Notes: generated by a model from the letters alone, not told the origin. Shown: positions 35,001 to 50,977, numbered from the stretch's first letter. The stretch is DNA of 64,000 nt from Candidatus Dojkabacteria bacterium (GCA_018056375.1 JAGPFQ010000002.1:75344-139343); one strand, 5' to 3'. Numbers and translations are program-made.

Positions 35001-37205
35001 GGCAAGTTAGGTAATGGTGGTACTGCTCAATCCACAGAACCTGTGGTTGTGAGTAATGGAGGCATTTCAACAGGAACAAGGCTTGTTAATATTAGTGCAG
35101 GTACTAATCATACCTGTGTTATAGGGGCTAATTGGGCGTATTGTTGGGGACAGGGAAGTTATGGGGAATTGGGGAATGGTGGTACTGCTAATTCCTTAGT
35201 ACCAGTAGCTGTTAGCCAAGGCGCTATTCCAGTGGGAGCAAGGCTAGGAAACATTAGTGTTGGTGGTAATCATACTTGTGCTATTGGTGATGGTGATATA
35301 GGAGTTCACTGCTGGGGATATAATAACACTGGTCAATTAGGAGATGGTAGTAATACTCAATCTTTGACACCAGTATTTGTTCTTACAGGGGCGAGTTCTG
35401 TTATTAAACAAGTGTGTATATCTAGTGGCTCAAATCATACTTGTTCTGTTAATTATAATGGTCAGGCATACTGTTGGGGACAGGGAACATATGGTAAGTT
35501 AGGAAATGACTCTACTACTAACACCCCCACTATGAGTTATGTATTACTAAAAGGTTTAACTCCAACCATAGATTTTGATACAACTCCTGCTACGAGCACC
35601 ACATATACATCTACAACATCTATGAGTGCAGTAACTCCTCCACTTACAGCATCTGGGACAATACCACTAAAACTAACTAATCCAGATGGTCAATATGCTA
35701 CATATAACATAACGGTGAAAGCACCACCTTCAGCTCCACAAAATCTAACTGCAACTGCAGGAAATAAACAAGTAGTATTAAGCTGGACAGCTCCAAGTTC
35801 TCCAGGTAGCTCTCCTATTACAGACTACATAGTTGAATATAGTACAGATAACAGTACATGGACTGTATTTAATGATGGTACATCAACAAGTACTACAGCA
35901 ACAGTTACCGGTCTAACTAATGGAACTTTGTATTACTTTAGAGTAGCAGCAGTAAATACAGTTGGGACAGGGAAATATAGCAATACTGCATCAGCAACAC
36001 CCTTTAATGCACGTCCTGTATTCTCAGCAATATCAAATAACTCACCTAGTGGTACACCTAAGAATCCAGGAGACTCAATTACTTGGAATGCAACAGCATA
36101 TGACCCTGATTCAAATCAAGTGAAGTTAATAGTTTGTGATTCTCAAGGTATAACAGGGGGTATATGTAATGGGACAGAATTATGTTCAAGTTCTTTGGTA
36201 ACTTCTAACCCCTCATGCTCACATACAGCTACACCTCCTTATGCAGCAGGTCCTCATGATGCATATGTTTATGTGTTTGATGGTGAAGGTTTAGCAGCAT
36301 CAGGTGGAGTACATAATACTAATAGTGTCTTTTATATAAACAATGTAGCACCTTCAGTATTATCAGTAACACTTAATAGTGGTAATGCTATTACTTTACT
36401 AGAGAGTACAACCACATCTGTTTCTATTAAAACTCAAATAGAATCTAATAATGGTTGTCAGTCAATAGGGACAGTAACAGCATATCTATATAGATCAGGG
36501 AAGGGCTATACCTACTGTAACAAGGGGGCTGATGCAGATAACAACTTTTGCTATTCAGAAATCTCCTGTATACGAGATGCTGGAGAATGTACAGCTCCAT
36601 ATGGAAAAACAGCAAGGTATACCTGTACTGCAAGTGTCTGGTACTATGCAGACCCAACAGATAACAATACTGTATATAGTAGCGAAAACTGGCTAGCTAC
36701 AGTAAAAGCATTGGGAGGTGGTGGTACTGTTGGTACTGCCCAATCCTCAACAGGAGTAGAGATGAATTCATTAATAGCTTTTGATGTTACTAGCTCACTA
36801 AACTATGGTGATCTTCTTGTCTCTGAAGTTACGGATCCATTAAGTAAAGTATTGACAACTACTGCCACTGGTAATGTTGGTATCAATCAAAACCATTCTG
36901 GTGAGGGTATGGGGATGTGTGTAGACTATAATGATCAACATAATCCATGTTCTGTTGGTACTCCGATAGGGCTCGCTCAGCAGAAGTATAGCACTTCTGC
37001 TTCGACAAGTTATACAGATCCAACAAAAGCAATAGCTTTAACGCCTTCAGCTACTTTGGTTCAGCTAAAAATTCCCAAAGTAACTTCAACTCCTACATCA
37101 GCTAATACTTGGTGGGGCATATCTATTCCATCAAATATATTACCAGGTGCGTACGAAGGAAGAAACAGAATTGAGGCAGTCAAATCTGCTATCTCTGATT
37201 GGTAG
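32079..37205 (+). CDS. Giant secreted/surface protein: Cys-rich N-terminal module, ~21 RCC1 (beta-propeller) repeats, fibronectin type III domain and Ig-like/Cys-rich C-terminal modules
   Basis: Signal/TM at the N-terminus; repeated units ...GGNHTC(G/A)I..DG.AYCWG.N.YGQLG(D/N)G.T...; FN3 PSAPQNLTATAGNKQVVLSWTAP...YYFRVAAVN; 1708 aa. Near-identical DNA repeats between propeller blades at 34800-35510. Confidence 0.75.
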   Translation: MEITKKPNIPQQTASVSNKNQTDVTSWIKNNSFTNSKENMIKLVVLALLAFLLPFSVVVSSATYSKYDFFKKDQVTEGDVLGAGEAVCQEDKVCGMVGLGGCVARAECLENEFACGEGADMVCCDKGECQECSPCIDGFQAEANECGEVTKSCESVDCTGGVCGEVESVCYPVKYKVTYGTKEGKCPEPEEVCPGTANKAPECSSNTATVQEYTLISGTCEGFDTKTGVCNEVVEDLEVGVVWEPMVLPKGSPLMGAKGGAGIRAMTAPSISSVSPTNYSFLGGGSMTINVSNIVDTEQFDIVASGGNHTCGIKSDGWAYCWGYNYHGQLGDGTNTNSSVPVKVAQGVIPEGVGLKEITAGSTHTCVIGTNDKAYCWGYGANGRLGNGSTSNRNTPVAVNTTRTFRGIVAGGGHTCAFGDIEMYCWGLNSSGQLGDGTTTQRTTPVQVNRGDIPAGTGLYSLTAGDSHTCVLDTGNVIGGGGPIVSAVSNVKAYCWGNNQYGQVGDGTTTTPKTTPVGVDFIAFGTPSPFKKINAGGYHTCAINGNDVTYCWGLNNGGQLGDNSTNNASRPKAINQGNIPTGETLEMLSLGLYHSCAIASNAKAYCWGQGQYGQLGNSGTGGSYTPVAVSQGAIPTGIGIANMGTGSYHGCVRGSNGKLYCWGQNTYGKLGDGTTTTPRTSPVAVVDAAGANTYEINIGNNTLTRTLTPGTTSISVSPILAHTPGTVSIYIKRLTDNVNSNSVSFVYSNFPAPSISNVNPNTIGQAGGETVSITGSNFLDYNVFGSVVSISAGMFHSCAIQEEGAFCWGRNNYGQLGDRSINQRNTPVLVDKGDIPAGVSLSSISVGSYHTCGVGSNYKAYCWGYNNAGQLGDGGSVTSSDSPIEVQTSVTFKSISAGGYHTCGISTDNWAYCWGQGTYGKLGNGGTTDSSIPVAVNQGAIPSGVSLISISAGANHTCAIGSDDWAYCWGQGTYGKLGNGGTAQSTEPVVVSNGGISTGTRLVNISAGTNHTCVIGANWAYCWGQGSYGELGNGGTANSLVPVAVSQGAIPVGARLGNISVGGNHTCAIGDGDIGVHCWGYNNTGQLGDGSNTQSLTPVFVLTGASSVIKQVCISSGSNHTCSVNYNGQAYCWGQGTYGKLGNDSTTNTPTMSYVLLKGLTPTIDFDTTPATSTTYTSTTSMSAVTPPLTASGTIPLKLTNPDGQYATYNITVKAPPSAPQNLTATAGNKQVVLSWTAPSSPGSSPITDYIVEYSTDNSTWTVFNDGTSTSTTATVTGLTNGTLYYFRVAAVNTVGTGKYSNTASATPFNARPVFSAISNNSPSGTPKNPGDSITWNATAYDPDSNQVKLIVCDSQGITGGICNGTELCSSSLVTSNPSCSHTATPPYAAGPHDAYVYVFDGEGLAASGGVHNTNSVFYINNVAPSVLSVTLNSGNAITLLESTTTSVSIKTQIESNNGCQSIGTVTAYLYRSGKGYTYCNKGADADNNFCYSEISCIRDAGECTAPYGKTARYTCTASVWYYADPTDNNTVYSSENWLATVKALGGGGTVGTAQSSTGVEMNSLIAFDVTSSLNYGDLLVSEVTDPLSKVLTTTATGNVGINQNHSGEGMGMCVDYNDQHNPCSVGTPIGLAQQKYSTSASTSYTDPTKAIALTPSATLVQLKIPKVTSTPTSANTWWGISIPSNILPGAYEGRNRIEAVKSAISDW

Positions 37206-37269: not shown

Positions 37270-37674
37270 CTATGCTAATTCGACTGTAGCACCAACCTCT
37301 TCAAACTTAGCCTTAATCTCTTCTGCTTCCTCCTTCTTAACACCTTCCTTAACAGTCTGAGGTGCACCATCAACAAGATCCTTAGCTTCCTTCAAACCAA
37401 GTTCGGTAATCTCTCTTACAACCTTGATTGCGCCAATCTTGTTATCACCACCATCCTTAAGAACGATGTCAAACATAGTTTTCTCTTCCTCTGCTGGAGC
37501 TGCTTCTGCTGGAGCTGCTGCAACTGCAACTGGTGCTGCTGCTGAAACTCCGAACTTGTCTTCCATAACCTTTACGAGGTCTGCAAGTTCTAAAACAGAC
37601 ATCTTCTCAACAATCTCGAGAACTTTCTTACCATCAGCAGATAGCTCTGGTAATGTTTTTGTTTCCTCTGCCAT
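37270..37674 (-). CDS. rplL: 50S ribosomal protein L7/L12
   Basis: Ala/Glu-rich hinge [19 protein letters not shown] and a conserved C-terminal domain [23 protein letters not shown], 134 aa. Confidence 0.92.
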
Positions 37675-37709
37675 GTTTGTAAATATTTAAATTAAATAAT
37701 TGTTTCTAA

Positions 37710-38231
37710 TTAAGCTTTCTTTTCAGAAATGCCCTTAAGAACCATAGTTAAACCTCTAACATTGCCTGTAACAGCATTCATAAATCCAGATAGAGATGCA
37801 GACATACTTCCAACCAATTGACCAAGTAATACTTCTTTAGATGGAATCTCTGCTAACTGCATAACTCTCTCTTCTGAGAGAAACTCTCCTTCAAATACAC
37901 CTCCCTTAGCACCTAAGAGTTGAGTTTCTTTCTGTGTTTCTTTAACTAATTTTGCTGGACCAGTAGGATCCTCTTCAAAGTAGATTATCGCAGTAGGACC
38001 ATCTATATCTTGAGCCTCTAGTGGTTGGTTCTCCTCCTGTAATGCTACTTTAAAAATACTATTCTTAACAACTGCATAGTTAGCATCAAGGTCTTTTAGT
38101 TCAACCTTTAGCTTAGTAACTGTAGCAGTATCAATTTTGTCAGAGTTAACCAAAAGATATCCAGACTTATTCTTCAAAATATCTTTATATTTTTCTAGCA
38201 ACTCTGTTTTTTGAGAACGAGTTTTTGCCAT
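37710..38231 (-). CDS. rplJ: 50S ribosomal protein L10
   Basis: Typical L10 N-terminus, directly upstream of rplL; 173 aa. Confidence 0.88.
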   Translation of the reverse strand: MAKTRSQKTELLEKYKDILKNKSGYLLVNSDKIDTATVTKLKVELKDLDANYAVVKNSIFKVALQEENQPLEAQDIDGPTAIIYFEEDPTGPAKLVKETQKETQLLGAKGGVFEGEFLSEERVMQLAEIPSKEVLLGQLVGSMSASLSGFMNAVTGNVRGLTMVLKGISEKKA

Positions 38232-38517
38232 ACACTTACTTATTTAATTAATTTGAATCTATGTTTATCTAACAAGGATTTACTTTTGCACCTTGTTTCT
38301 TCGATAAACAACTGGGCAAATTATATCTCATGGAGTGGGTGAGGTCAAGTAATTGTATTTGGTAAAAATAGTTCTAGTTAATAAATGCAGAAGGTTGTCT
38401 ATATCTTTTTAATACTTTGCAAAAGAGTTTTTAAATGTGATAATTAGATAATACATTATATTTATTAGTTTGATCTATTGTTGTACCCATCAAAATATGG
38501 GAGTATGATATGAAGAG
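38232..38517 (-). promoter_or_regulatory. rplJ-rplL promoter/leader region (possible L10 autoregulatory leader), divergent from the vWA gene
   Basis: 286-bp AT-rich intergenic region upstream of rplJ. L10 operons typically carry a structured leader. No specific motif verified. Confidence 0.3.
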
Positions 38518-40917
38518 ATGAATATAGAGCAAGAATCTTTTTGCGAAAATCAAGAACCTGATGTAGAGGTTGTAGTGGACGATTTAAGAGGAAAAACTTT
38601 TGAAGAGTTTACTCCTGAGCAACAGGCGGAAATAGAGTATAAACGACAGGTGCTATCTACTTTAGCATATTTTATAGGGAAAGATTTTAGTATTCCTGTT
38701 GAGCTTAATGAGCCAGGAGGTGGTTGGCATTGGGATTTTGGGGACAATATCATAAGGATTGACCCAATAGGTCTTTTGGAAAAGCCTATGGATCATCTCC
38801 GTTATATTATTTCTCATGAAGGAGGACATAGAAGGATAACCAGAGTTAGTGAAGCTCAAATGGAAGATAGGCAACAAATAGGGTTTCCTTTCTTGATGAA
38901 TGTTATAGAAGACCCTCGAACAAATAATTTTGTTGCAGATGTGTATCCTAGGTTTGCGGGACAAATGAGAAGGGCATACAAAAGGAACTATGAAAAAGAA
39001 GCAGAACTGAGAGAGAAATTTAAGGGACAACTGGGACATTCTCTGCGGTATATTGATGCTGGTTTTGAATATCTCCGTCTTTGGTATGAAGAAACTGTGG
39101 GTGAGGAGAATCCTCCTGTAGATAGTAGGCTTCCAAAAGAAGTTCAAGAAGTAATTATGAGAACAAGAGAGGCTGCTCGAGATGCTTGGTTGAGATATCC
39201 ATCGAGAGAAGAAGCAGATAGTAGTGAAGAAATCATAAAACAATATTCGGAGTTTAGTTATAAGATTATTAAAGAAAAGGTTTGGCCAGAATTCAAAAAG
39301 CTCATAGAGTTAGATAGGAGAGATCAACAAATCCAAGAGTTTCTACAAGAAATGCTTCCAGAAGAAGGAGAAGGAGATGAACCAAATATCCCGCAGGAGC
39401 TTAAAGATGACTTGACACCTGAAGAACAGGAAGAGTTAGAGGGTGCCTTGAAAGGTAAGACTAAGAAGAAAGATTTAAATAATCAGGAACAAGGAGGTAC
39501 GCCGAGTAGTGGTTCTATGTATGGTAAAGGACAAGGTGGTTCCCAGATAGAAGGTTCGGAAGATGGAGGGCAAGAAAGTGATACTCAGGAAGATACAAAT
39601 TTGGAAGGAAATGGAAAACAAAATGATACAAAGGCAAAAGGTTTAGAAGGTAGTGAGAAACAAGAAAGTAATCAAAATGATAAAGGTTTAGAAGAGGATG
39701 GAGAACAAGGAGAAGCATCTTTCGATGCTTCTGGACGAAATACAATAGATTTAGATTCTCTATCCGAAGAATTAAAGGTAAAGCTTAAAGAATATATAGA
39801 CTCTTTACCAGAGGAAGCTCAACAAGAGCTGAGAGAGAAAGCAGATTCTACTTTAGGAGGTTTGGAAGAGGATTTTAATGAACAGTTAAAAGGAAAGTTA
39901 GTAGATTATTCTGCAGATGAGGGTCAAGAAGAGCCCGAAGAACAACCTGATAATTCTGTTGACTCTCAAAATCAATCTTACTCAGGTACAGAAGAAGATA
40001 AATCTGCAGATTCTCCTCTTGCAGAAAAGGAGGAATCATCACCAACGGAACAACAACAATGGTCTGGTTCGGAGCCATTTACACCCAAACCTCCTTCTGG
40101 GCAATATATATTTGGGCGTGCTCCAGATATAGAAAGAGAAGTGTCAGAAGGAGATTTAAGTCTATATGAAAGAGAGCGTCAAACGGTTTTACCATTAATT
40201 GATAAGTTAGAAAGTGATTTAAGAGAGATTTTTGTAGCAAGAAGAGCTAGTGGTTGGAAGACAGGTTTTAAAACAGGTGATAAAGTAGATATTCACAAGA
40301 GGATTCAAGAGAGAGCTCGAGGAATTCCTCCAATGGAAGGTAAATCATGGAAAAGAAGAGAAGCACCTAAGGAGAAGGATTATGCAATTACTTTATTAGT
40401 AGATTTGTCAAATTCTATGGCTGGGGCAACAATAGAGGAAACATTTAGGTCTACGATTGTTCTAGCTGAAGTTTTAAGTAGATTATCAATAAAAACAGAA
40501 ATTGTAGGTTTTAGTAATAAGAGGGAACAAGGATTGCACGAATATAAAAACTTTACAGAAGATATGGATAATCAAACAAGGAAAAAGATGAGTAATATTA
40601 TAAAAGATGTTTTTGGTGGGACAGATACGGGATGGGCTATTAAAGAAGCTTCTGAAAGACTTGCTAAACAAAATGCGACTGAAAAGTTTCTTTTGGTTCT
40701 TTCTGATGGAGATGCAAACGTACCAAAAGAATTGATCGAGGCTATGGGAAATATAGATACAAATACAGACCAAAAAGTAATAGGTCTGGGGCTTGGTCAT
40801 GGAAATGTCATTGATAAGTATTTCCCAAACAATCTTTCAATTCTTAGAGTAGAGGAAATGGCTGAAAAATTAGCAGATGTTATACGTGAGATTATTGCTA
40901 ATACAGATTCTTTCTAG
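38518..40917 (+). CDS. Multidomain protein: N-terminal HExxH metallopeptidase-like region, long acidic low-complexity linker, C-terminal von Willebrand factor A (MIDAS) domain
   Basis: ISHEGGHRR HExxH motif. Acidic D/E/Q/G-rich segment ~aa 280-500. vWA with MIDAS LLVDLSNSMAG ... LVLSDGDAN. 799 aa. Confidence 0.6.
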   Translation: MNIEQESFCENQEPDVEVVVDDLRGKTFEEFTPEQQAEIEYKRQVLSTLAYFIGKDFSIPVELNEPGGGWHWDFGDNIIRIDPIGLLEKPMDHLRYIISHEGGHRRITRVSEAQMEDRQQIGFPFLMNVIEDPRTNNFVADVYPRFAGQMRRAYKRNYEKEAELREKFKGQLGHSLRYIDAGFEYLRLWYEETVGEENPPVDSRLPKEVQEVIMRTREAARDAWLRYPSREEADSSEEIIKQYSEFSYKIIKEKVWPEFKKLIELDRRDQQIQEFLQEMLPEEGEGDEPNIPQELKDDLTPEEQEELEGALKGKTKKKDLNNQEQGGTPSSGSMYGKGQGGSQIEGSEDGGQESDTQEDTNLEGNGKQNDTKAKGLEGSEKQESNQNDKGLEEDGEQGEASFDASGRNTIDLDSLSEELKVKLKEYIDSLPEEAQQELREKADSTLGGLEEDFNEQLKGKLVDYSADEGQEEPEEQPDNSVDSQNQSYSGTEEDKSADSPLAEKEESSPTEQQQWSGSEPFTPKPPSGQYIFGRAPDIEREVSEGDLSLYERERQTVLPLIDKLESDLREIFVARRASGWKTGFKTGDKVDIHKRIQERARGIPPMEGKSWKRREAPKEKDYAITLLVDLSNSMAGATIEETFRSTIVLAEVLSRLSIKTEIVGFSNKREQGLHEYKNFTEDMDNQTRKKMSNIIKDVFGGTDTGWAIKEASERLAKQNATEKFLLVLSDGDANVPKELIEAMGNIDTNTDQKVIGLGLGHGNVIDKYFPNNLSILRVEEMAEKLADVIREIIANTDSF

Positions 40918-40931
40918 TATACTTTTTTTAT

Positions 40932-41342
40932 ATGGAAGACACATTCGAAGATTTTTTACTTAAAACAGAATCTCAGAAAGAAGTTTCTTTAGTAATAGTA
41001 CAAGAAGATCAAGATATTGAAGAAATAATTGAAGTGTTGGAGAAATTTCAATATAAGAATATGGTCAATCTTCCTAGTTTACTAAAAGAGATAGAAAGAC
41101 CTTCTAGAGTTTGTATTTTTTTGGAAAAGGTTTTCCCTAGAAAATTGTATGATTTTATTTCCCAGTATCCTACAGGAAATATTGAAGTATATGATAATGA
41201 AACATCTGGATCTCAAGTAGCTTTTCCTTTGTATGACGGAGTATCCATTGTTGTAGTAGCTAAACAATCTGCTCTTGATTATGCAAAACGTTTAGGTTAT
41301 TCAGTATTAGAGAAAGTAGGTTTAACATTTAGAAAATCATAA
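40932..41342 (+). CDS. Hypothetical protein (136 aa) between the vWA and AAA genes
   Basis: ORF of good length, co-directional and tightly spaced (14 and 5 nt gaps). No recognisable motif. Confidence 0.4.
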   Translation: MEDTFEDFLLKTESQKEVSLVIVQEDQDIEEIIEVLEKFQYKNMVNLPSLLKEIERPSRVCIFLEKVFPRKLYDFISQYPTGNIEVYDNETSGSQVAFPLYDGVSIVVVAKQSALDYAKRLGYSVLEKVGLTFRKS

Positions 41343-41347
41343 TTATT

Positions 41348-43486
41348 ATGAATCAGGGATTTACAGAGGAGTTAGTCCTAGAAGATGAAGAACAATTCGA
41401 GAGCGAAGAGTCAACACAGGGGACTGAGAATACAACGTGGGATATTGTTCAAGAGGCAGAAACAGTCTTGCAAAATACAAATCAGGAAAATGAACAAGTA
41501 TCTAACGAAGTGATTGAACATGCAGGAGGAGCTATAATTGAAACAGCAGACTCTATTTCTTACTTTGGGATAGAACTGCCCAAAGCAAAAGAAAATGATA
41601 GTCCCCTTGTTCCAAAAAGAAAAAATTATGTAGATTTTATACCAGATGATTTTTCATTAAATTTACAGAAGAATATTGCGATAAGTCTTGCTCAAGGAGA
41701 CCCTCTTCTAGTGGAGGGAGGAACTAGTATTGGGAAAACATTTGCAATAAAGAAGATGGCTGCAGAGTTGGGTTGGGAGGTACACTATATTAACCTTAAT
41801 GGTGCTACAGATGTCGAGAATTTAATGGGTAGGTATGTGCCCAATGCAAATAAGAAGAGCCCTGAAGACCCTGAGTATATTTTTGCCGATGGTAAAGTCA
41901 CTTCAGGTTTGCGACAGGAGGAGGGTAAAATTAAGATTATAGTCTTAGATGAACTTAATGCTGCATCTCCAGATGTCCTTATTAGACTTCATGAAGTTCT
42001 GGATGCTTTGAATAGTGGAGAAGATGTAGTTCTTTCAGAGAGTACAGGTGAGGGTATTCCTGTGAACAAACAAACAACCAAGATTGTAGGATTGATGAAT
42101 CCACCAGGTAAAGGGTATTTTGGTAGGGAACCACTAGATCCAGCACAATTAAGAAGATGGGTTTACTATAAAGCTCCTTCTGAACTTCCTGTAGATGCCT
42201 TCTCTGTTTCTGTGGATGAATTGTTTCGTGTTTCATCTATAGATGAGAGTAATGGAGTACTACGTAACCAAGAATTCGAAGAGGAAACTTTAGTCCCTGA
42301 GGGACAATTGGGGTCGAAGTCTAGAAGATTATCCCCTGAGCAACTCAAAGATATCGCTGGTCTGCCTGAGATATTGAGTAAATATAAGGAATTTCATATT
42401 ACTGCAAAAGAACTTGTAAAAAACAGAAAAGTTGCTGCAGATCAACCCCAACCTTTTACATTTGATGATCGTGTTGAGCCCAAGAGGGTAAGGGATTTTA
42501 TTTTGAGATATTTTAATGGAGACATAACTGAAACTTTCCAAAATGCTCTAAGATATTACTATTCTAACAAATTGGAATCAGATATAGACAGAGAGACATT
42601 AGAAGAGGCAATATTACTTGTTGAAGCTCCTGCATATCAGCGAAAATCTAATAGAAGAGGTTTAGAGGATATGGAGTCAGCATATTCAAGTACTGAAAGT
42701 AAAGAGTCAAGAGAGTTTTTAGAATTGGAGATTATAAAAAGAGAAAAAGAAGAATGGAGAAAAGTTCTCGGAGTGGATATAGAAGTAGATCCTCTCCCTG
42801 ATAGTGTTACTCCTGAATTAGTTAATTCCCTCAAACATTTAGGAATGGAGTTAAGATATATACCTAAAATAGATTTTATAGATACCTTTGATATGTATAA
42901 TGGATATATAAGACCGGACATGTTAGCACGAAAGTATCCTAATTGGAAAGGATTGGAAGGGTTAACTGAAGGACAGAGGAAAGATCCTAAGATATATAGA
43001 AATCTACCTGAGGACTATTGGAAGGATTACGGAGCAGGTACAAAGTCTAATGGTTATTGGTTAGCTGTGGAGGTTCTTCCAAAACCAGATAGAGGACAAG
43101 AGTATGTTGAGACAGAACTTTCTAAGACCTTAGAAGTAAAGACACGTTTTCTTACATACAAATATGAATTGGATAACATTTTAACACGCAAGAGATATGA
43201 CCTTCTAAAGCAGTTATTTAGAAGACAAAGCTATAGGTATGAAACTGATTTTAGATTGTTATCGCCACTTGAATGGAACTTATTAGGGAATAGAGAGGGT
43301 TGGGGAGGTACAGATACATATGAGATGATATCCTTAAAAAGTCAAGATATGGTGATAGGGAATTCTGACTTAGATGGGGCAGGGGGGTTATATGACCGTG
43401 ATCGTGATGATTTGGTAAAAAAGAAAAAGGCTGGTTTTCGTCTTGCTTTGTTTTTTGATAGGGAACAAGCTCGTCCACGAATCTAA
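41348..43486 (+). CDS. AAA+ ATPase of the AAA_5 (MoxR/CbbQ/NorQ, dynein-related) subfamily with long N- and C-terminal extensions
   Basis: Walker A EGGTSIGKT, Walker B KIIVLDELN, sensor GLMNPPG, LRRW arginine; 712 aa. Pairs with the vWA protein, as in MoxR-vWA chaperone pairs. Confidence 0.65.
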   Translation: MNQGFTEELVLEDEEQFESEESTQGTENTTWDIVQEAETVLQNTNQENEQVSNEVIEHAGGAIIETADSISYFGIELPKAKENDSPLVPKRKNYVDFIPDDFSLNLQKNIAISLAQGDPLLVEGGTSIGKTFAIKKMAAELGWEVHYINLNGATDVENLMGRYVPNANKKSPEDPEYIFADGKVTSGLRQEEGKIKIIVLDELNAASPDVLIRLHEVLDALNSGEDVVLSESTGEGIPVNKQTTKIVGLMNPPGKGYFGREPLDPAQLRRWVYYKAPSELPVDAFSVSVDELFRVSSIDESNGVLRNQEFEEETLVPEGQLGSKSRRLSPEQLKDIAGLPEILSKYKEFHITAKELVKNRKVAADQPQPFTFDDRVEPKRVRDFILRYFNGDITETFQNALRYYYSNKLESDIDRETLEEAILLVEAPAYQRKSNRRGLEDMESAYSSTESKESREFLELEIIKREKEEWRKVLGVDIEVDPLPDSVTPELVNSLKHLGMELRYIPKIDFIDTFDMYNGYIRPDMLARKYPNWKGLEGLTEGQRKDPKIYRNLPEDYWKDYGAGTKSNGYWLAVEVLPKPDRGQEYVETELSKTLEVKTRFLTYKYELDNILTRKRYDLLKQLFRRQSYRYETDFRLLSPLEWNLLGNREGWGGTDTYEMISLKSQDMVIGNSDLDGAGGLYDRDRDDLVKKKKAGFRLALFFDREQARPRI

Positions 43487-43551
43487 TTCTAGTATCTTGC
43501 GAAATAAGGGAGAGTAGGTATTAGGCTCTTGCTTTCTTCTCTGGTATCTCT

Positions 43552-44532
43552 TTACTGAAAACCTACATCTTTGCCTTCATACCAATCTAGTGTGTCTTGT
43601 ATTGTCTTGTGGATGTCTCTAGCTTTAAATCCTAGCTCTTTCTCTGCTTTACTACTATCTGTTAGGTGGTTAGAGTGTAGTACCTCAATAGCATATTCTG
43701 TAAATACAGGTTTCTTTTTTAATAATTTATAAAAGAATTCTGCAATTGGAGCAAGGAATTTAATTATACATGTAGGAGCCTTGATTTTTGGTCCAGGTGT
43801 ATCTGTTATCTTTGCTAATAGTTGGAAGAGTTCAAAGATGGTTATACTTTGTCCTGCGAGTAGGTAACCTTCTCCTGTTCTTCCTTTTTCTAATGCAAGG
43901 ATAATACCATTTGCAACATCTCTTACATCTACAAAATTATATCCTCCTTCTATATAGAATACTTTGGAGTATTTTCTAGCATCTTTGATTAAACTACCAA
44001 ACTCTGAGTGTCTAAAGTCATATGGTCCTACTATTCCAGAAGGGTAGACCACTACAGTGTCTAATCCCTCTTTGGCTGCTGTTAGAATTTCTCTGGTTGC
44101 CAGTACTTTTGTTTTTCCATATTCATCTTTTATACCTGTTATCTTTGCTAATTTCTCAATGATAGGGATACCCTTTGGTGGTTCATAGAGTGCATGTATA
44201 GAGCTTGTGTAGAGGAGTCTTTGCACCTTGGCTTTTTTACATGCTTCTATGACAGTCTTTGTACCTTCTACATTGACATCATACATGAGTTGTTCTTTAC
44301 CTGGTGCTATTGATATGATACCAGCTAGGTGGCATACATATTTTGCTTTTTTGAATATATTGGTAAGAAAATCTAAGTCTCTGATATCACCCTGATAATA
44401 TACTATATCTAATCCTTCTAAGGCTTTGTCTTTTGGATCTCGGTCTATAACTCCAACCTTATAGCCCTTAGAGAGTAGGGCTCTCACTAATACATTTCCT
44501 ACGTGACCTGAACCACCTGTGACTATTACCAT
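43552..44532 (-). CDS. NAD-dependent epimerase/dehydratase (extended SDR) family protein
   Basis: N-terminal Rossmann motif VTGGSGHVGNVLVRALL and an extended-SDR fold, 326 aa. Confidence 0.65.
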   Translation of the reverse strand: MVIVTGGSGHVGNVLVRALLSKGYKVGVIDRDPKDKALEGLDIVYYQGDIRDLDFLTNIFKKAKYVCHLAGIISIAPGKEQLMYDVNVEGTKTVIEACKKAKVQRLLYTSSIHALYEPPKGIPIIEKLAKITGIKDEYGKTKVLATREILTAAKEGLDTVVVYPSGIVGPYDFRHSEFGSLIKDARKYSKVFYIEGGYNFVDVRDVANGIILALEKGRTGEGYLLAGQSITIFELFQLLAKITDTPGPKIKAPTCIIKFLAPIAEFFYKLLKKKPVFTEYAIEVLHSNHLTDSSKAEKELGFKARDIHKTIQDTLDWYEGKDVGFQ

Positions 44533-44624
44533 ACATTTTCATTATATTCTCTTTTCTAAGAAGTAGTCAAATAGATATCTCTACTGAGTTGCATCCAAGA
44601 GTGATCAAGTTTGAAATAACGTGA

Positions 44625-45452
44625 TTATACTTTGTTGAATTTTTTGTAATATAATCCTTGTTTGAGATTTCTCATTATAGTATCTGTCTCTTCATTGTAA
44701 ACAGCATCTTTTATAAAATCTGTAGTCTCTAATAATTCTTTCATCATATCTAATGATTTCTTTCCCCAACCTTCAATCTTAATACCATCCTTATTCATTT
44801 TGTTTAAATAGAGGTTTCTTTGTTTGTTAATAGTGCTTAATCCTATTAAAAATCTCTTACTTAATTTCCCATTTTCATTAAGTATTTTATCTAAAAATGG
44901 GTCTAAATCAACTAAAAAAATCTGATTACTTTCACATTCGTAAACAAATTGTACTGGTCGAAATATATCCGTAAGGTAAAAAGAACTTTTGTCAGCTGAA
45001 AGATATTTATATAAACTATAATTAGTAATATTTGTTAACCATTTGTCCATTTGAATGTAGAAATTTTCTTTATCGTAATCCCAACAACATTGATAATCAA
45101 GAGGAAGACATCTTCCTTCTATAAATTCAGACATTAGACATAGACCACTTCCTTTAGATCCTTCTTTTGTATGAAAATGTGATACAAAGAGCATGTATTC
45201 AGGGATTTGTATGTCAAATTCATTTAATTCTGATGTGAGGGCTTGGAAGTTTTTAGCAACTTCGAGATAGTTCGGTCCTATAGAGAAACGTCTTTGGTCG
45301 GATAGAGAGGGTGGTCTTAATACGTACTTTTTCCCATTTTCTTCTGGCTGGTAAACTATAAGACGGGTGTCTGTCTTTCCTCCAACATCTATGTAAGTAG
45401 AATTTTTGTCGTCGTGATAGATGCAATCAGTATAATAGTGTTCTTCTTCCAT
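44625..45452 (-). CDS. Hypothetical protein with protein-kinase-like/APH-like fold motifs
   Basis: YVLR (Lys-region), hinge-like SEFIEG, catalytic-loop-like TDIFRPVQFV and DFG-like LVDLDPF. 275 aa. Weak assignment. Confidence 0.35.
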   Translation of the reverse strand: MEEEHYYTDCIYHDDKNSTYIDVGGKTDTRLIVYQPEENGKKYVLRPPSLSDQRRFSIGPNYLEVAKNFQALTSELNEFDIQIPEYMLFVSHFHTKEGSKGSGLCLMSEFIEGRCLPLDYQCCWDYDKENFYIQMDKWLTNITNYSLYKYLSADKSSFYLTDIFRPVQFVYECESNQIFLVDLDPFLDKILNENGKLSKRFLIGLSTINKQRNLYLNKMNKDGIKIEGWGKKSLDMMKELLETTDFIKDAVYNEETDTIMRNLKQGLYYKKFNKV

Positions 45453-45526: not shown

Positions 45527-46213
45527 TTACTCAGCACTATATACAATCTTTACACTTTGTCCCATTGTTGGGGCTAAGTGCATCTTGTTAATCATCAACT
45601 CTGGTGTTCTTCCTACAACCTCCGAGATTGCTAGTAGGGCAGAGTGGAGATTTTCAATAAGCTTCTCATCTTCTAGGTCTAGTTTTCCAACACTCATATG
45701 TACAACTCCTGATGGATCGCATGCAAATGTTTGCTTTCCTTTTTTATATTCAGATACTGCATTTACAATATCTTCAGTTACTGTACCATTCTTTGGACTT
45801 GGCATGAGTCCTTTTGGCCCTAGTTCTTTACCTAATATAGCAATCTTTGGCATTACATCTGGTGTTGCAATTGCTACATCAAAATCAATCTTTCCTGCTT
45901 TGATATCTTTAATTAAGTTCTCTAAACCAACAACATCTGCTCCTGCTTTCTTTGCTTCTTCCTCTTTGTTAGGTGTACAAAATACTGCTATTTTTACTTG
46001 TTTTGTATCTGTTGTATGTGGTAATGATACTGCTCCTTTAAGAGATTTTGGATCTTTATCTTTAGGAAGTTTAAGGTCAACATGAAGTTCTAATGAACCA
46101 GTGAACTTAGAGTATGAGAGCTCTTTTGCTTTTTTTACTCCTTCTTCTATGGTATATGTAGCTGTTCTATCTAAATCCTTTGCGATTTTTTTGTAGTTTT
46201 TTCCTCTTTTCAT
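45527..46213 (-). CDS. rplA: 50S ribosomal protein L1
   Basis: Typical L1 sequence, 228 aa, immediately downstream of rplK. Confidence 0.9.
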   Translation of the reverse strand: MKRGKNYKKIAKDLDRTATYTIEEGVKKAKELSYSKFTGSLELHVDLKLPKDKDPKSLKGAVSLPHTTDTKQVKIAVFCTPNKEEEAKKAGADVVGLENLIKDIKAGKIDFDVAIATPDVMPKIAILGKELGPKGLMPSPKNGTVTEDIVNAVSEYKKGKQTFACDPSGVVHMSVGKLDLEDEKLIENLHSALLAISEVVGRTPELMINKMHLAPTMGQSVKIVYSAE

Positions 46214-46226
46214 ATATTTATTCTAT

Positions 46227-46655
46227 TTAGTTAATATCAGTATCAATACCCATTTGTTTTGCAGTACCTGCAACTATTTTTGCTGCTTGTTCTGGGTCTG
46301 ATGTATTAAGGTCTGGTAGTTTAATATCAACGATTTTCATAATCTGTTCTTTTGTTAACTTTCCAACTTTTTTTAAGTTTGGTTGTCCTGATCCTTTTTT
46401 AATATTCAATTCTCTTCTGATTAGTTCTGAAGTAGGGGGAGTTTTAAGGATGAAGGAGAAGGTTCTATCTTCGTAGATTGTTAAAACTACTGGAGTAAGA
46501 ATACCATTGGCTTCCTTTGTTTTTTCATTAAACTGTGTACAGAAATCTTGTGTGTTAATACCATAAGGGGCTAGGGTAGGACCAATGGGTGGTGCCATAG
46601 ATGCTTGTCCTGCAGGTATTGTGATTTTAATGATTTGTTTAATCTCTTTTGCCAT
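46227..46655 (-). CDS. rplK: 50S ribosomal protein L11
   Basis: KITIPAGQASMAPPIGPTLAPYGIN conserved L11 N-terminus, 142 aa. Confidence 0.92.
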   Translation of the reverse strand: MAKEIKQIIKITIPAGQASMAPPIGPTLAPYGINTQDFCTQFNEKTKEANGILTPVVLTIYEDRTFSFILKTPPTSELIRRELNIKKGSGQPNLKKVGKLTKEQIMKIVDIKLPDLNTSDPEQAAKIVAGTAKQMGIDTDIN

Positions 46656-47468: not shown

Positions 47469-47544
47469 TGGCAGGCCCACACCGACTCGAACGGTGAACT
47501 ACGGTTTTGGAGACCGCTGTTTTACCAATTGAAACTATGGGCCC
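47469..47544 (-). tRNA. tRNA-Trp (anticodon CCA), CCA 3' end encoded
   Basis: Reverse complement folds as acceptor GGGCCCA/TGGGCCT, D-arm GTTT-CAATTGGTA-AAAC, anticodon stem GCGGT/ACCGT, loop CTCCAAA, T-arm CACCG-TTCGAGT-CGGTG, G-CCA. Canonical rpmG-tRNATrp-secE context. Confidence 0.8.
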
Positions 47545-47568
47545 GTATTGGTAAGAACAACACAGAAA

Positions 47569-47736
47569 CTACTGTTTTACCTTAGTCTCCTTATGTTCGG
47601 TATGACCTTTGCAAGTCTTACAGAACTTCTTTAGTTCGATTTTATCTTTAACATTTCTAGTCTTGTATACGGTGTAGTTTTTACTATCACATTTTGTACA
47701 TTTAAAGGCTATTATGTCTCTTTTTACTTTTGCCAT
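47569..47736 (-). CDS. rpmG: 50S ribosomal protein L33 (55 aa; missing from the ORF track)
   Basis: Manual translation MAKVKRDIIAFKCTKCDSKNYTVYKTRNVKDKIELKKFCKTCKGHTEHKETKVKQ, with the L33 CxxC...CxxC zinc ribbon and KLELKKF motif. Confidence 0.8.
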   Translation of the reverse strand: MAKVKRDIIAFKCTKCDSKNYTVYKTRNVKDKIELKKFCKTCKGHTEHKETKVKQ

Positions 47737-47823
47737 TCCCGGAACGAAACTAAATTAGAATATTTATTATGGGAAATACTAGCGTATTATATTGTAAATT
47801 GATGGTGAGGTCAAATATTTTAC

Positions 47824-48402
47824 TTAGATTTCCATTGGACCTTTGATATCTTCTACTGTTGGAGGTGTTGAGGTATTGGGAGTAGGGGTATCTGAGTATG
47901 TAATTTCTACTTGAGTGGTGGGAATATAGTTGTCTTTTATTGTTTTTTTTATTAAATTTACTCCTGTATCTACCCATCCTTCCACAGCGTTATTGTATCC
48001 ACTTAGGTTGTTGTCTCCTATGCGCATATCGGTATTAGGAGTTTCTGGGATGATAAAAGTACAGTATTTATCACCTCTTTGAAATCTTATATCTGTTTCG
48101 GTAATGCGTCTTTCTTCATCTCGAATAGGTTTGATACTGACTATTGGTGTTGTTGATAATGGAGGTTTCTTACTTTCTTCTCCTTTTTTTAATATGAGGG
48201 TAATTTTGTCAGCATTGTTTAGAACTTTTTGGATGGCATCAAGGGAGAGTATGTATTCTAAGTTTTTTCGAATTGCTTTAAGTTTCTCTCGATCTTGTAC
48301 TTCTAGAGGTCCAAACATGCTTCCTCGTGGATCATATTTTTTTATATCTTTTAGTTGTCTTGCCCAAGCACCTGTAAAATTTGTACTTTCACTAAATCCC
48401 AT
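47824..48402 (-). CDS. Hypothetical protein (192 aa)
   Basis: ORF only. Thr/Pro-rich C-terminal tail. No motif recognised. Confidence 0.4.
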   Translation of the reverse strand: MGFSESTNFTGAWARQLKDIKKYDPRGSMFGPLEVQDREKLKAIRKNLEYILSLDAIQKVLNNADKITLILKKGEESKKPPLSTTPIVSIKPIRDEERRITETDIRFQRGDKYCTFIIPETPNTDMRIGDNNLSGYNNAVEGWVDTGVNLIKKTIKDNYIPTTQVEITYSDTPTPNTSTPPTVEDIKGPMEI

Positions 48403-48488
48403 TTTTATTTATTAACAAATTATTAACTTTATCATAGCAGATTCAAATGGAGAAATAAATTTGTTTAAGAAGGTTCCTTTATATTCTT

Positions 48489-50246: not shown

Positions 50247-50815
50247 TTCTCAGTAATGTTTATGTAATATTTTGCGTTTACATACTGAACAATTGGATAC
50301 AGAAGGAAATTGTCACTGCGATGGTCTTGTACGATATATAGTTCTGGTTTGTCTTTATGGCTAATATATTCTATGTAGGTTGTAGGGTCTTCGTTAAGTT
50401 CTATTTTGTATAACCTTAAGTGGTGCTTTACATCATCTAACTCTTTCAGATTTATTGTACTTATAGCACCGACTTCGTACACAGAAGAGTCCTTTGGGTA
50501 TGGATTGATAGGAGTTGTGATTAGAATAGGCTCTTCATATCGATGGACAGTAGTATTCTCAATCACAGTACTATTTTCAGATGGGAGCTTTTCTAAAATA
50601 TTGCAATAGTTTTGCATGTATGTGTTCTCTATCTGAAATCTCCACTTTTCTCTTTCTAATTTTAATTGTTCGTTAGTGCTGGGTATGTAGGTTTTTGAAT
50701 AGGTGTCCATAAACATTTCTATTGTGCTTCCACTAATCATAACTGATATTATGGATCCAACGATAAGTATTATCACTACGACGATAGGAATGGCAGTTTT
50801 AATCTTTTCTTTCAT
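50243..50815 (-). CDS. Hypothetical single-pass membrane protein (190 aa)
   Basis: N-terminal TM IPIVVVIILIVGSIISVMISG; overlaps the upstream gene by 4 nt (operon-like). Confidence 0.4.
   Translation of the reverse strand: MKEKIKTAIPIVVVIILIVGSIISVMISGSTIEMFMDTYSKTYIPSTNEQLKLEREKWRFQIENTYMQNYCNILEKLPSENSTVIENTTVHRYEEPILITTPINPYPKDSSVYEVGAISTINLKELDDVKHHLRLYKIELNEDPTTYIEYISHKDKPELYIVQDHRSDNFLLYPIVQYVNAKYYINITEK

Positions 50816-50901: not shown

Positions 50902-50977
<76 letters not shown>

What the first reader, a model, noticed from the sequence alone, without database searches (positions are those of the whole stretch)
38518..45452. About 7 kb block with an HExxH+vWA protein and an AAA_5/MoxR-like ATPase splits the conserved rplK-rplA / rplJ-rplL ribosomal cluster
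In most bacteria rplKAJL are contiguous and followed by rpoBC. Here rplA (45527-46213) and rplJ (37710-38231) are separated by five genes: a 799-aa protein with an N-terminal HExxH region, a ~220-aa acidic low-complexity linker and a C-terminal vWA/MIDAS domain; a 136-aa ORF; a 712-aa AAA_5 ATPase; an SDR epimerase; and a kinase-like protein. rplL is followed by a convergent giant gene rather than rpoB. vWA plus MoxR-class AAA pairs act as metal-insertion or remodelling chaperones (CbbQO, NorQD, RavA-ViaA) and also occur in conflict/immunity systems. The fusion to a putative metallopeptidase with a long acidic tether is unusual.
Basis: partly seen in the sequence, partly recalled or inferred. 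Interest (0 to 1): 0.7.

Follow-up and report, generated by a model that had tools for sequence, protein, structure and literature searches.

The report
Hypermutation-target sensor module without its retroelement
Between two ribosomal-protein operons of a tiny Dojkabacteria (CPR) bacterium sits a three-gene ATPase / vWA / putative metalloprotease operon. In about forty related loci from other CPR genomes the same operon is the target of a mutagenic retroelement (DGR), but here the retroelement is gone and the variable part is frozen, so this is a variant of a known kind of system, not a new one.

Summary
The coordinates and domains are correct, except that the 275-aa ORF has no kinase signal. 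The "five-gene block" is not one unit. Its core is a three-gene operon (38518-43486, +): a HExxH + acidic linker + MIDAS/vWA protein, a 136-aa orphan protein, and an AAA_5 (midasin/CobS-like) ATPase.

This trio recurs across Patescibacteria. In 40 fetched loci the last ~120 nt of the ATPase gene is the variable repeat of a diversity-generating retroelement, and 656 of 687 template/variable mismatches fall at template adenines. Avd and the reverse transcriptase lie just downstream.

The window copy (Candidatus Dojkabacteria) has no RT, Avd or template repeat in 64 kb, and its variable-region equivalent is invariant across strains. It is therefore an orphaned, frozen copy.

Genomic context elsewhere varies: restriction-modification, Abi, Fic and HEPN genes, recombinases, phage genes. 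Ribosomal adjacency is seen only here and, independently, in one other locus. The SDR and 275-aa genes never accompany the trio elsewhere.

AAA-CLec DGR targets in CPR are published. I found no description of the HExxH-vWA and 136-aa partners. The sensor-chaperone-protease mechanism is inferred.

The parts
38232..38517 (.). Divergent intergenic region between rplJ and the trio. It holds promoter-like sites for rplJ (38348->38320, TTGACC-17-TATAAT) and for the trio (38416-38444).
   Evidence: consensus matches only, fewer than in shuffles. No Rfam L10 leader was found. The region is 100% identical in six strain contigs.
38518..40917 (+). 799-aa HExxH + acidic linker + vWA/MIDAS protein, the first gene of the trio operon.
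   Evidence: The family has >=547 members, E about 1e-190, and is always about 700 aa.
38518..39357 (+). N-terminal domain (aa 1-280) with invariant HEGGH (aa 100-104, nt 38815-38829) and invariant E131/D132 (nt 38908-38913). It is a putative minigluzincin-like metallopeptidase core followed by a helical bundle.
39355..40197 (+). Acidic low-complexity tether (aa 280-560; D+E 26%). It is about 100 aa longer than in relatives and has a conserved helical island (IDLDSLSE..YIDSLPE).
40273..40914 (+). vWA domain (aa 586-799) with an intact MIDAS motif D629-x-S631-x-S633 (nt 40402-40416) and D730.
   Evidence: Pfam CobT_C 5.9e-12, VWA_CoxE, VWA. PDB profile hits: CobT 1.3e-16, midasin MIDAS 2e-8, NorD 6e-4. 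Invariant columns.
40932..41342 (+). 136-aa orphan protein (YDFIxQYPTG motif), the second gene of the trio, 14 nt after the vWA gene.
   Evidence: 219 cluster representatives, all stand-alone proteins of about 136 aa. No Pfam or PDB match. Present between the vWA and AAA genes in most loci.
41348..43486 (+). 712-aa AAA_5 ATPase with a helical lid and a C-terminal C-type-lectin (FGE-sulfatase-like) domain, the third gene, 5 nt after the small gene.
   Evidence: Walker A GGTSIGKT (aa 124-131) and Walker B D201-E202 are invariant.
42785..43483 (+). C-type-lectin / FGE-sulfatase-fold domain (about aa 480-712).
43334..43456 (+). Frozen equivalent of the DGR variable repeat (about aa 663-703: SQDMVIGNSDLDGAGGLYDRDRDDLVKKKKAGFRLALFF).
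   Evidence: It aligns with the VR of relatives. No template repeat is present in the window. It is 100% identical in six contigs. Only one substitution (S665G) falls here among all members of the >=90% identity cluster.
43552..44532 (-). SDR sugar epimerase/dehydratase (HpnA-like). It is a neighbour, not part of the system.
   Evidence: Pfam Epimerase 1e-33, TIGR03466 1.3e-68 but below cut-off. It co-occurs with the trio only in this species.
44625..45452 (-). 275-aa ORF of unknown function in a strain-variable slot. Not part of the system.
   Evidence: No hit in any library. It is replaced by PhdYeFM + YoeB in GCA_040773625.1 (L003).
37270..38231 (-). rplJ-rplL operon (left flank).
45527..46655 (-). 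rplK-rplA operon (right flank).

Best explanation
The region holds two unrelated things.

(1) The core is a three-gene operon (38518-43486, + strand). It is an orphaned copy of a module that is widespread but patchily distributed in Patescibacteria/CPR, with a few DPANN-labelled bins. The module has three genes:
- (a) a protein with an N-terminal HExxH...E minigluzincin-like domain, a long D/E-rich tether and a C-terminal MIDAS/vWA domain;
- (b) a 136-aa orphan protein;
- (c) a single-module AAA_5 ATPase of the midasin/CobS/NorQ branch that ends in a C-type-lectin-fold ligand-binding domain.

In most relatives the last ~40 codons of (c) are the variable repeat of a diversity-generating retroelement, with TR, Avd and RT immediately downstream. 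The module is therefore the hypermutated 'target' side of the typical CPR DGR. In this Candidatus Dojkabacteria genome the retroelement half is absent and the former variable region is fixed.

(2) The SDR gene and the 275-aa ORF are independent cargo in the same gap between the rplKA and rplJL operons. That gap behaves as a small strain-variable insertion site.

Proposed mechanism (inferred from homology, about 35-40% confidence):
- The ATPase forms a ring, as CobS, NorQ, CbbQ and the midasin ring do, and presents the lectin-fold domains as cytoplasmic ligand sensors.
- The MIDAS protein docks on the ring through its tether and pre-vWA helices.
- ATP-driven remodelling couples ligand capture to activation or delivery of the Zn-peptidase domain.
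- The 136-aa protein acts as adaptor or regulator.

This resembles the MoxR-vWA 'ternary' conflict systems, with the DGR supplying anticipatory sensor diversity. In the window copy the sensor specificity is hard-wired.
For: Shown:
- Domains and invariant catalytic motifs: HEGGH, E131, MIDAS DxSxS, Walker A and B.
- The trio order vWA-small-AAA is conserved in about 60 loci from different CPR lineages.
- In 40 loci a TR/VR pair has its VR ending <=60 nt before the ATPase stop codon, and 656/687 mismatches lie at TR adenines. In L008 all 21 mismatches are at TR adenines, 20 of them in codon positions 1-2, and the TR encodes an Asn-rich template.
- An RT is present in 36 of 49 loci with >=4.5 kb of downstream sequence, and Avd in 38 loci.
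- The window's C-terminal domain models confidently as an FGE/CLec fold and matches the DGR variable proteins TvpA, Mtd and TaqVP.
- The window has no RT, Avd or TR.
- The exact ATPase sequence is on 74 contigs, and variants within the >=90% identity cluster differ at scattered sites, with only one in the VR equivalent. The trio shows 0-1 nt differences across six contigs.
- In an NJ tree the window ATPase nests inside a DGR-bearing clade, on a long branch.
- Contexts elsewhere: type I and II restriction-modification, AAA_15, Fic, RadC, AbiEi/Eii, HEPN, integrase or serine recombinase, SU10-like portal and capsid genes.
- No TM segment; all three proteins are acidic.

Literature:
[quoted passage not shown] 2017).
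- CPR 'UVR4' targets match the midasin AAA domain, and TR-(avd)-RT is the architecture of 90% of CPR DGRs (PMC5758913).
- MoxR-vWA ternary conflict systems with DGR-diversified FGS domains are described in PMC7159879.
Against: - The mechanism is untested. No complex model could be made.
- Some cassettes sit among ordinary housekeeping genes (ParAB, ClpB, RelA, TopA), so the defence-island context is not universal.
- PADLOC gave no significant hit.
- Only 64 kb of this genome was searched, so a trans-acting DGR elsewhere is not strictly excluded.
- The six strain contigs were retrieved by identity of the vWA protein, which biases the 100% identity of that gene.
Confidence: 0.78

Rival explanations
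1. All five genes form one inserted functional island: vWA-peptidase, small protein, ATPase, SDR epimerase and a 'kinase'.
For: The genes are physically contiguous between rplA and rplJ. Four of the five are kept in all strain contigs seen.
Against: SDR and 275-aa homologues were found next to the trio in no other locus. They are on the opposite strand, and the SDR gene has its own promoter-like site. The 275-aa gene is swapped for Phd/YoeB in L003. The 275-aa ORF has no kinase signal. No flanking repeats or att-like sites bracket the block.
Confidence: 0.04
2. A CobS/CobT-, NorQ/NorD- or CbbQ/CbbO-type housekeeping chaperone that inserts a metal into, or reactivates, a specific enzyme.
For: The best named hits are CobT_C, CobS and NorQ/NorD. 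JGI annotators call the relatives 'CobT'.
Against: NCBIfam scores are far below the equivalog cut-offs: 28 against 759 for CobT and 22 against 559 for CobS. The window has no CobN-sized partner, because the only ORF over 1000 aa is the RCC1 protein. The ATPase carries a lectin-fold domain that is hypermutated in relatives, which does not fit a fixed client enzyme. The family is patchily distributed and its context varies.
Confidence: 0.06
3. A midasin-like factor that acts on ribosomes (assembly or remodelling of the L1/L10-L12 stalk region), which would explain its position inside the ribosomal cluster.
For: Midasin is the best solved relative of the ATPase (E 3e-25) and a good relative of the MIDAS domain. 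A second locus, L078, also has the trio 2.2 kb from rplJ-rplL. Wu et al. noted ribosomal-protein genes inside five CPR DGR cassettes (PMC5758913).
Against: Only 2 of about 60 lineages show the adjacency. The two copies belong to different clades: 47% identity to each other, while L078 is about 70% identical to copies that are not next to ribosomal genes. Among about 55 loci, one chance co-occurrence near a given gene pair is not improbable (rough estimate about 0.3). The family is absent from most CPR genomes: about 81 species hits among 185,579 genomes, although the scan was pattern-limited. A ribosome biogenesis factor would be expected to be core.
Confidence: 0.04
4. The module is still diversified, by a DGR located outside the 64-kb window and acting in trans.
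For: DGRs with remote targets are known (PMC5758913, PMC7159879). Only 64 kb was inspected.
Against: The VR equivalent is identical at nucleotide level in six contigs from different samples. The exact protein occurs on 74 contigs. The few variants differ mostly outside the VR equivalent. The region has a 9-aa deletion and a charged DRDRDD..KKKK stretch unlike any TR-encoded Asn-rich pattern.
Confidence: 0.05
5. A decaying remnant of a mobile or prophage-borne DGR cassette with no present function.
For: Avd, RT, TR and the HEPN and phage genes that flank its nearest relatives are all missing. It is the most divergent family member, with <=51% identity to all others against 60-72% among them.
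Against: All three ORFs are intact and tightly spaced (14 and 5 nt). Every family-invariant catalytic residue is kept. The block is essentially invariant across strains whose flanks differ by up to 5%. The lectin-fold domain still models with high confidence.
Confidence: 0.08

Closest known systems
CPR diversity-generating retroelement targets of the 'AAA ATPase + CLec' class (Paul et al. 2017 as cited in PMC10907252; 'UVR4 / midasin' targets and B3 TR-(avd)-RT architecture in Wu et al. 2018, PMC5758913)
   Same: The ATPase is an ortholog (about 50% identity over the full length) of proteins whose C-terminal lectin-fold VR is rewritten by an adjacent TR-(Avd)-RT cassette. It has the same AAA_5/midasin-like N-terminal part and the same fold at the C-terminus.
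   Different: The window copy has no TR, Avd or RT, and its VR equivalent is fixed. The two conserved upstream partner genes (HExxH-acidic-vWA and the 136-aa protein) are not mentioned in the papers I could read.
MoxR-vWA 'ternary' (VMAP / iSTAND) conflict systems with DGR-diversified FGS domains (Kaur, Burroughs, Iyer & Aravind 2020, PMC7159879; Dore et al. 2024, PMC10907252)
   Same: Three components built around an AAA+ chaperone and a vWA protein, association with a peptidase and with a hypervariable lectin-fold sensor, frequent location in defence or mobile contexts, and predicted cytoplasmic location.
   Different: The ATPase is of the AAA_5 (CobS/NorQ/midasin) branch, not MoxR proper. 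The lectin-fold domain is fused to the ATPase, not to the vWA protein. The peptidase is an HExxH domain fused to the vWA protein, not a trypsin or caspase on a VMAP. The third component is a 136-aa orphan, not a VMAP. The hosts are ultra-small CPR bacteria, not multicellular bacteria.
Midasin / Rea1 (eukaryotic 60S biogenesis AAA+ protein)
   Same: It is the best solved relative of the ATPase domain. The grammar is the same: AAA_5 module(s), then a D/E-rich tether, then a C-terminal MIDAS domain.
   Different: Midasin is one polypeptide of about 4,900 aa with six AAA modules. Here one AAA module and the tether+MIDAS part are on two proteins, with an added HExxH domain and a lectin-fold domain. 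No link to ribosomes was shown.
Aerobic cobaltochelatase CobS/CobT; NorQ/NorD; CbbQ/CbbO
   Same: A two-protein AAA_5 + (acidic region + vWA) chaperone pair. CobT and NorD are the closest solved vWA relatives.
   Different: Scores are far below the family cut-offs. There is no CobN or client enzyme. The HExxH and lectin-fold domains are extra, and the family is linked to a DGR.
Minigluzincin metallopeptidases (selecase, projannalysin; HtpX-like cores)
   Same: An HExxH helix preceded by a small beta-sheet and followed about 27 residues later by an invariant Glu. These are the top Foldseek matches.

Membership tests
DGR variable (target) protein, CPR AAA-CLec class | C-terminal C-type-lectin / FGE-sulfatase fold | tested here: met
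DGR variable (target) protein, CPR AAA-CLec class | N-terminal AAA_5 / midasin-like ATPase | tested here: met
   PF07728 at 3.8e-12. Midasin at 6.8e-34 and 2.9e-25.
DGR variable (target) protein, CPR AAA-CLec class | Variable repeat with a cognate template repeat differing at template adenines | tested here: not met
   Window: no TR/VR pair in 64 kb. Relatives: met in 40 loci, with 656/687 mismatches at A.
DGR variable (target) protein, CPR AAA-CLec class | Adjacent reverse transcriptase and Avd | tested here: not met
   No tblastn hit better than E 0.39 in the window. Only 65 nt separate the ATPase stop from the SDR gene. Relatives: RT in 36 of 49 loci.
DGR variable (target) protein, CPR AAA-CLec class | Hypervariability of the VR among strains | tested here: not met
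   0 differences in six contigs. One VR-region substitution among all cluster members.
MoxR-vWA ternary (VMAP) conflict system | MoxR-clade AAA+ ATPase (AAA_3) | tested here: not met
   AAA_5 matches all 32 members. AAA_3 matches only weakly, in 10 of 32 (best E 0.004). The solved relatives are midasin, CobS and NorQ.
MoxR-vWA ternary (VMAP) conflict system | vWA protein with MIDAS, encoded next to the ATPase | tested here: met
MoxR-vWA ternary (VMAP) conflict system | VMAP third component carrying an effector or adaptor | tested here: inconclusive
   The third gene is a 136-aa orphan with no Pfam or PDB match. No VMAP profile was available.
MoxR-vWA ternary (VMAP) conflict system | Lectin-fold (FGS) sensor/effector fused to the vWA component | tested here: not met
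   The lectin-fold domain is on the ATPase.
Cobaltochelatase CobS/CobT | Scores reach the NCBIfam equivalog cut-offs | tested here: not met
   TIGR01651 scores 28.1 against 759, and TIGR01650 scores 21.9 against 558.6.
Cobaltochelatase CobS/CobT | CobN partner or cobalamin pathway nearby | tested here: not met
   The only ORF over 1000 aa in the window is the RCC1-repeat protein. The other large ORFs are UvrA, LeuRS, ArgRS, ComEC, a Mur ligase and a PBP.
Midasin / Rea1 | Six tandem AAA modules in one polypeptide | tested here: not met
   A single AAA_5 stretch, aa 120-270.
Midasin / Rea1 | D/E-rich region followed by a C-terminal MIDAS domain | tested here: met
   Present, but on the separate vWA protein.
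Gluzincin-type metallopeptidase | HExxH plus a downstream Glu ligand, conserved | tested here: met
   H100, E101, H104 and E131 are invariant in 31 sequences.
Gluzincin-type metallopeptidase | Zincin fold (sheet + active-site helix + Glu helix) | tested here: inconclusive
Gluzincin-type metallopeptidase | Zinc binding and peptidase activity | not testable with these tools
   Needs biochemistry.

The most novel reading that the evidence does not exclude
The conserved trio could be a so far undescribed three-component machine that is the main hypermutated system of CPR/DPANN nanobacteria. Its parts are a HExxH-peptidase + D/E tether + MIDAS protein, a 136-aa orphan, and an AAA_5 ring ATPase with a lectin-fold sensor. 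In effect it would be a split, midasin-like ATP-driven receptor-protease that serves as an anticipatory intracellular immune (or host-interaction) sensor. On this reading, the Dojkabacteria copy shows that the machine can be domesticated with a fixed specificity after losing its retroelement, and then spread as a single invariant haplotype among diverged strains.
Probability: 0.3. Interest if true: 0.75.

Novelty: new variant of a known kind. Interest (0 to 1): 0.5.

Why it matters
DGRs are unusually abundant in CPR bacteria, and it is an open question what their cytoplasmic, ATPase-fused targets do. This locus and its relatives show that the target is not a lone protein. It is the third gene of a tightly conserved operon whose first gene combines a putative Zn-peptidase, an acidic tether and a MIDAS domain.

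That gives a concrete, testable architecture for the system: sensor on an AAA ring, a MIDAS partner, and a protease output. It links the system mechanistically to the CobST, NorQD, CbbQO and midasin machines and to the MoxR-vWA conflict systems.

The DGR-less Dojkabacteria copy is a natural 'frozen' variant with a single sensor sequence. That makes it a convenient starting point for finding a ligand.

For genome annotation, it also shows that 'CobT/CobS' labels in CPR genomes are misleading, and that the split of the rplKA and rplJL operons here is an insertion-site phenomenon, not a functional link to the ribosome.

Tried and rejected
- Pfam, NCBIfam, PADLOC and PHROGs on the N-terminal HExxH domain, the 136-aa protein and the 275-aa ORF found nothing beyond the vWA and AAA domains.
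- tblastn against GenBank phages matched only the vWA domain of phage 'CobT' proteins and one haloarchaeal virus AAA domain, so the trio is not a known phage CobST.
- An IMG/VR scan gave only 3 contigs, so the family is mostly cellular.
- A metagenome scan for close relatives of the window protein gave one fragment, so the insertion could not be dated.
- An Rfam search found no L10 leader upstream of rplJ.
- A repeat search found no att- or TSD-like repeats bracketing the trio or the five-gene block.
- Clustering the neighbours of about 75 loci showed no universally conserved flanking gene. Recurrent ones are extra DGR targets, HEPN in one clade (7 members) and a portal-like gene (6 members).
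- Paul et al. 2017 (PMC5436926) could not be read.
- Rejected readings: cobaltochelatase, a single five-gene island, a kinase, and a ribosome-linked function. See the rival explanations.

Full report
**1. Observation**

The ORF map agrees exactly with the finding. Pfam confirms L7/L12, L10, L1, L11 and NusG on the minus strand. Between rplJ and rplA it finds five genes:
- a 799-aa protein with CobT_C/VWA at aa 586-759;
- a 136-aa ORF without hits;
- a 712-aa protein with AAA_5 at aa 120-270;
- a 326-aa SDR epimerase;
- a 275-aa ORF without hits.

HEGGH lies at aa 100-104. The linker aa 280-560 is 26% D+E and low in complexity, and none of the proteins has a hydrophobic segment. rplL is followed by a convergent 1708-aa RCC1-repeat gene. 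The only unsupported detail is 'kinase-like' for the 275-aa ORF: it has no hit in Pfam (even at E<=10), NCBIfam, PADLOC or PHROGs.

GC content is unremarkable. Codon usage is only mildly atypical for the vWA gene. The rest of the window is ordinary chromosome: UvrA, LeuRS, ArgRS, ComEC, a Mur ligase, a PBP and ten tRNAs. The exact proteins are deposited as 'Candidatus Dojkabacteria bacterium' (MBP8979561.1 and MBP8979563.1), that is, WS6 of the CPR/Patescibacteria.

**2. The five genes are not one unit**

The three plus-strand genes are separated by 14 and 5 nt and form an obvious operon. The same order, vWA protein (~700 aa), small protein (~136 aa), AAA_5 protein (~650 aa), recurs in the loci I fetched from about 60 other lineages. 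These are labelled Parcubacteria, Microgenomates, Saccharibacteria, Peribacteria, Berkelbacteria, Doudnabacteria and so on, plus a few DPANN-labelled bins.

Homologues of the SDR and 275-aa genes accompany the trio only in the window's own species. In one strain (GCA_040773625.1, L003) the 275-aa gene is replaced by a PhdYeFM/YoeB toxin-antitoxin pair. No repeats bracket the trio or the block.

The gap between the rplKA and rplJL operons is therefore a small insertion site with several independent occupants. In model bacteria these are separate transcription units (my own knowledge). A near-consensus promoter-like site lies upstream of rplJ.

**3. What the trio is**

The vWA family is very conserved: mean column identity 61%, E about 1e-190, at least 547 members. 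Invariant features are HEGGH, E131/D132, the MIDAS DxSxS motif and D730. The acidic tether is a family feature, and the window copy merely has about 100 extra residues.

The ATPase has invariant Walker A and B motifs and a conserved helical lid. Its best solved relatives are the AAA modules of midasin (E 6.8e-34 with the single sequence, 2.9e-25 with a profile), then CobS and NorQ. The vWA profile hits CobT (1.3e-16), the midasin MIDAS domain (2e-8) and NorD. NCBIfam CobT/CobS scores are far below the cut-offs, so this is not a cobaltochelatase.

In the alignment the ATPase ends with a motif typical of FGE-sulfatase / C-type-lectin folds (EWNLLANREGWG ... GFRVAVVL), and close homologues differ at interspersed positions just before the GFR motif. 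That prompted a search for DGRs.

**4. DGR linkage in relatives**

A self-comparison of every locus found 61 repeat pairs with adenine-biased mismatches in 44 loci. In 40 loci the variable copy ends within 60 nt of the ATPase stop codon, and 656 of 687 mismatches lie at adenines of the other copy.

In L008 all 21 mismatches are at template adenines, 20 of them in codon positions 1-2. The template encodes RDDGDPNRVIVGNSDNGGAANANWNHPTNSNDNVGFRVAVVL, a classic Asn-rich TR.

A reverse transcriptase is present in 36 of 49 loci that have at least 4.5 kb of downstream sequence, and Avd in 38 loci. The order is target-TR-(Avd, minus strand)-RT. Several loci have two or three variable repeats for one template.

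This matches published descriptions:
[quoted passage not shown] 2017).
- Wu et al. found 'midasin' AAA matches in the CPR UVR4 target class, and found that TR-(avd)-RT accounts for 90% of CPR DGRs (PMC5758913).

Neither of these papers mentions the vWA or small partner genes.

**5. The window copy is an orphan**

The window has no RT, no Avd (best tblastn E 0.39) and no template-like repeat of the gene's 3' end. The SDR gene starts 65 nt after the ATPase stop.

The VR equivalent (about aa 663-703, nt 43334-43456) has a 9-residue deletion and a charged DRDRDD..KKKK stretch. It does not vary:
- The trio has 0-1 nucleotide differences in six contigs from different samples.
- The exact ATPase is on 74 contigs.
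- The few variants in its >=90% identity cluster differ at scattered sites, with only one (S665G) in the VR equivalent.

In a neighbour-joining tree of the AAA+lid region the window protein sits on a long branch inside a clade of DGR-bearing cassettes (L091, L008, L009 and others). Its vWA protein is at most 51% identical to any other, whereas the others are 60-72% identical among themselves.

DGR loss is not unique: 13 of the 49 loci with enough flank lack an RT.

**6. Context and mobility**

Elsewhere the cassette lies next to:
- type I restriction-modification genes, a HEPN gene, and SU10-like portal and capsid genes (L009);
- HEPN (L008);
- ParB-methyltransferases (L091);
- HaeII restriction-modification, AAA_15, Fic, RadC and a serine recombinase (L096);
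- an integrase, RelA_SpoT, Fic and AbiEi/Eii (the P0098 locus).

It also lies among housekeeping genes (L097, L098). Clustering of neighbours shows no universal partner. HEPN and a portal-like gene recur only in the clade nearest to the window. Only three IMG/VR contigs carry the module, and only about 81 of 185,579 species genomes matched the two nearly invariant peptide patterns. The module is therefore accessory and horizontally mobile, often in defence or mobile-element neighbourhoods.

Ribosomal adjacency occurs only in the window species and in L078. There rplL-rplJ are followed by a radical-SAM gene and a SEC-C gene before the trio. The L078 copy belongs to a different clade, so the two adjacencies are independent and, given about 55 loci, compatible with chance.

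**7. The HExxH domain**

No Pfam model covers aa 1-280. The AF2 model (pLDDT 75) has a helix, a three-stranded sheet, the HExxH helix, a second helix carrying E131, and then a helical bundle.

**8. The 136-aa protein**

An exhaustive profile search finds 219 cluster representatives, all stand-alone proteins of about 136 aa. They share a YDFIxQYPTG motif and match nothing in Pfam or the PDB. Its role is unknown.

**9. Mechanism (inferred)**

By homology with CobS/CobT, NorQ/NorD, CbbQ/CbbO and midasin (established knowledge of these families, not tested here), I propose the following:
- The ATPase forms a ring.
- The MIDAS protein binds the ring and/or an acidic residue of a client.
- The lectin-fold domains on the ring are the ligand sensors, diversified by the DGR in most lineages.
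- The HExxH domain is the output, and the small protein is an adaptor.

All three proteins are predicted to be soluble and cytoplasmic. This fits the 'antigen sensor' model proposed for DGR-diversified MoxR-vWA systems (PMC10907252, PMC7159879) better than a surface adhesin role.

It is not a member of those VMAP systems. The ATPase is of the AAA_5 branch, the lectin-fold domain is on the ATPase, the peptidase is a zincin fused to the vWA protein, and the third component is different.

**10. Verdict**

The locus is a DGR-less, sequence-frozen member of the known CPR AAA-CLec DGR-target family, embedded with unrelated cargo at an operon boundary in the ribosomal cluster.

What may be new:
- the conserved three-gene composition of the target module;
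- the natural orphan state;
- the block's invariance among strains whose flanks differ by up to 5%. This last comparison is biased, because the contigs were retrieved through the identical vWA protein.

Noticed in passing
window 38232-43486 versus flanks (loci L001-L006): The 5.25-kb trio plus its upstream intergenic region has 0-1 nucleotide differences in six contigs from different samples. The flanking genes are mosaic: rplJ 95.0-98.9%, rplL 97.3-100%, rplA 94.7-100%, rplK 95.1-100%, SDR 98.4-100%. This suggests a single haplotype spread by recombination or a gene-specific sweep. The contigs were retrieved through the identical vWA protein, which biases the comparison.
   Followed up: partly
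window 32079-37205 (+): The giant RCC1/WD40_RLD-repeat protein (1708 aa) has higher GC (0.40). It is the most strain-variable gene here (94.5-95.4% identity). In one strain (L002) it is replaced by three RCC1/fn3 genes, one of them at least 2913 aa.
   Followed up: no
window 44625-45452 (-); L003 16146-16663: The 275-aa orphan ORF occupies a slot that holds a PhdYeFM antitoxin + YoeB toxin pair in GCA_040773625.1. It is a strain-variable mini-island next to rplA.
   Followed up: partly
window 47469-51897: The usual tRNA-Thr/Tyr/Thr ... tuf ... tRNA-Trp-(rpmG/secE)-nusG arrangement is also interrupted. Between tRNA-Thr (50902-50977) and rpmG (about 47569-47736) lie three ORFs without any family hit (190, 585 and 192 aa), and no tuf gene. 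Conserved clusters in this genome seem generally permissive to insertions.
   Followed up: no
L008 6379-7962, L009 6400-7962, L042, L046, L054, L055, L064, L094: In the clade closest to the window copy, a HEPN_LA2681 gene of about 520 aa lies 39 nt upstream of the vWA gene on the same strand. In several of these loci a SU10-like portal gene lies further upstream, and in L009 a SU10-like capsid gene lies downstream. In this clade the cassette may be phage- or satellite-borne and have a HEPN effector.
   Followed up: partly
L016, L017, L029, L031, L034, L039, L043, L050, L059, L061, L062, L068, L070, L075, L082, L083: One template repeat matches two or three variable repeats. Besides the AAA-CLec gene there are additional downstream lectin-fold target genes. 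Eight neighbour ORFs cluster as such extra targets.
   Followed up: partly
L078 202-6136: This is the second case of the trio close to rplJ-rplL. A B12-binding radical-SAM gene (491 aa) and a SEC-C-motif gene (152 aa) lie between them, and rplK-rplA are not adjacent there either. Wu et al. (PMC5758913) also noted ribosomal-protein genes inside five CPR DGR cassettes.
   Followed up: partly
P0098 locus and L098 10343-11401: In one subclade an extra unannotated 352-aa gene lies between the vWA gene and the small gene, making a four-gene target module.
   Followed up: no
L020, P0081, P0167: Some family members come from bins labelled as DPANN archaea (Micrarchaeota, Anstonellales, 'archaeon'). 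Others come from bins labelled Gammaproteobacteria, Anaerolineaceae or Bdellovibrionales. This reflects either cross-domain transfer or, more likely for many of them, mis-binning or mislabelling of CPR contigs.
   Followed up: no
window 23020-29035 (-): A cluster of ATP-grasp genes (ATPgrasp_ST, RimK-like), with a 7TM_transglut gene named in the contig annotation, lies upstream of the MGDG-synthase gene. It looks like a peptide- or sugar-modification system.
   Followed up: no
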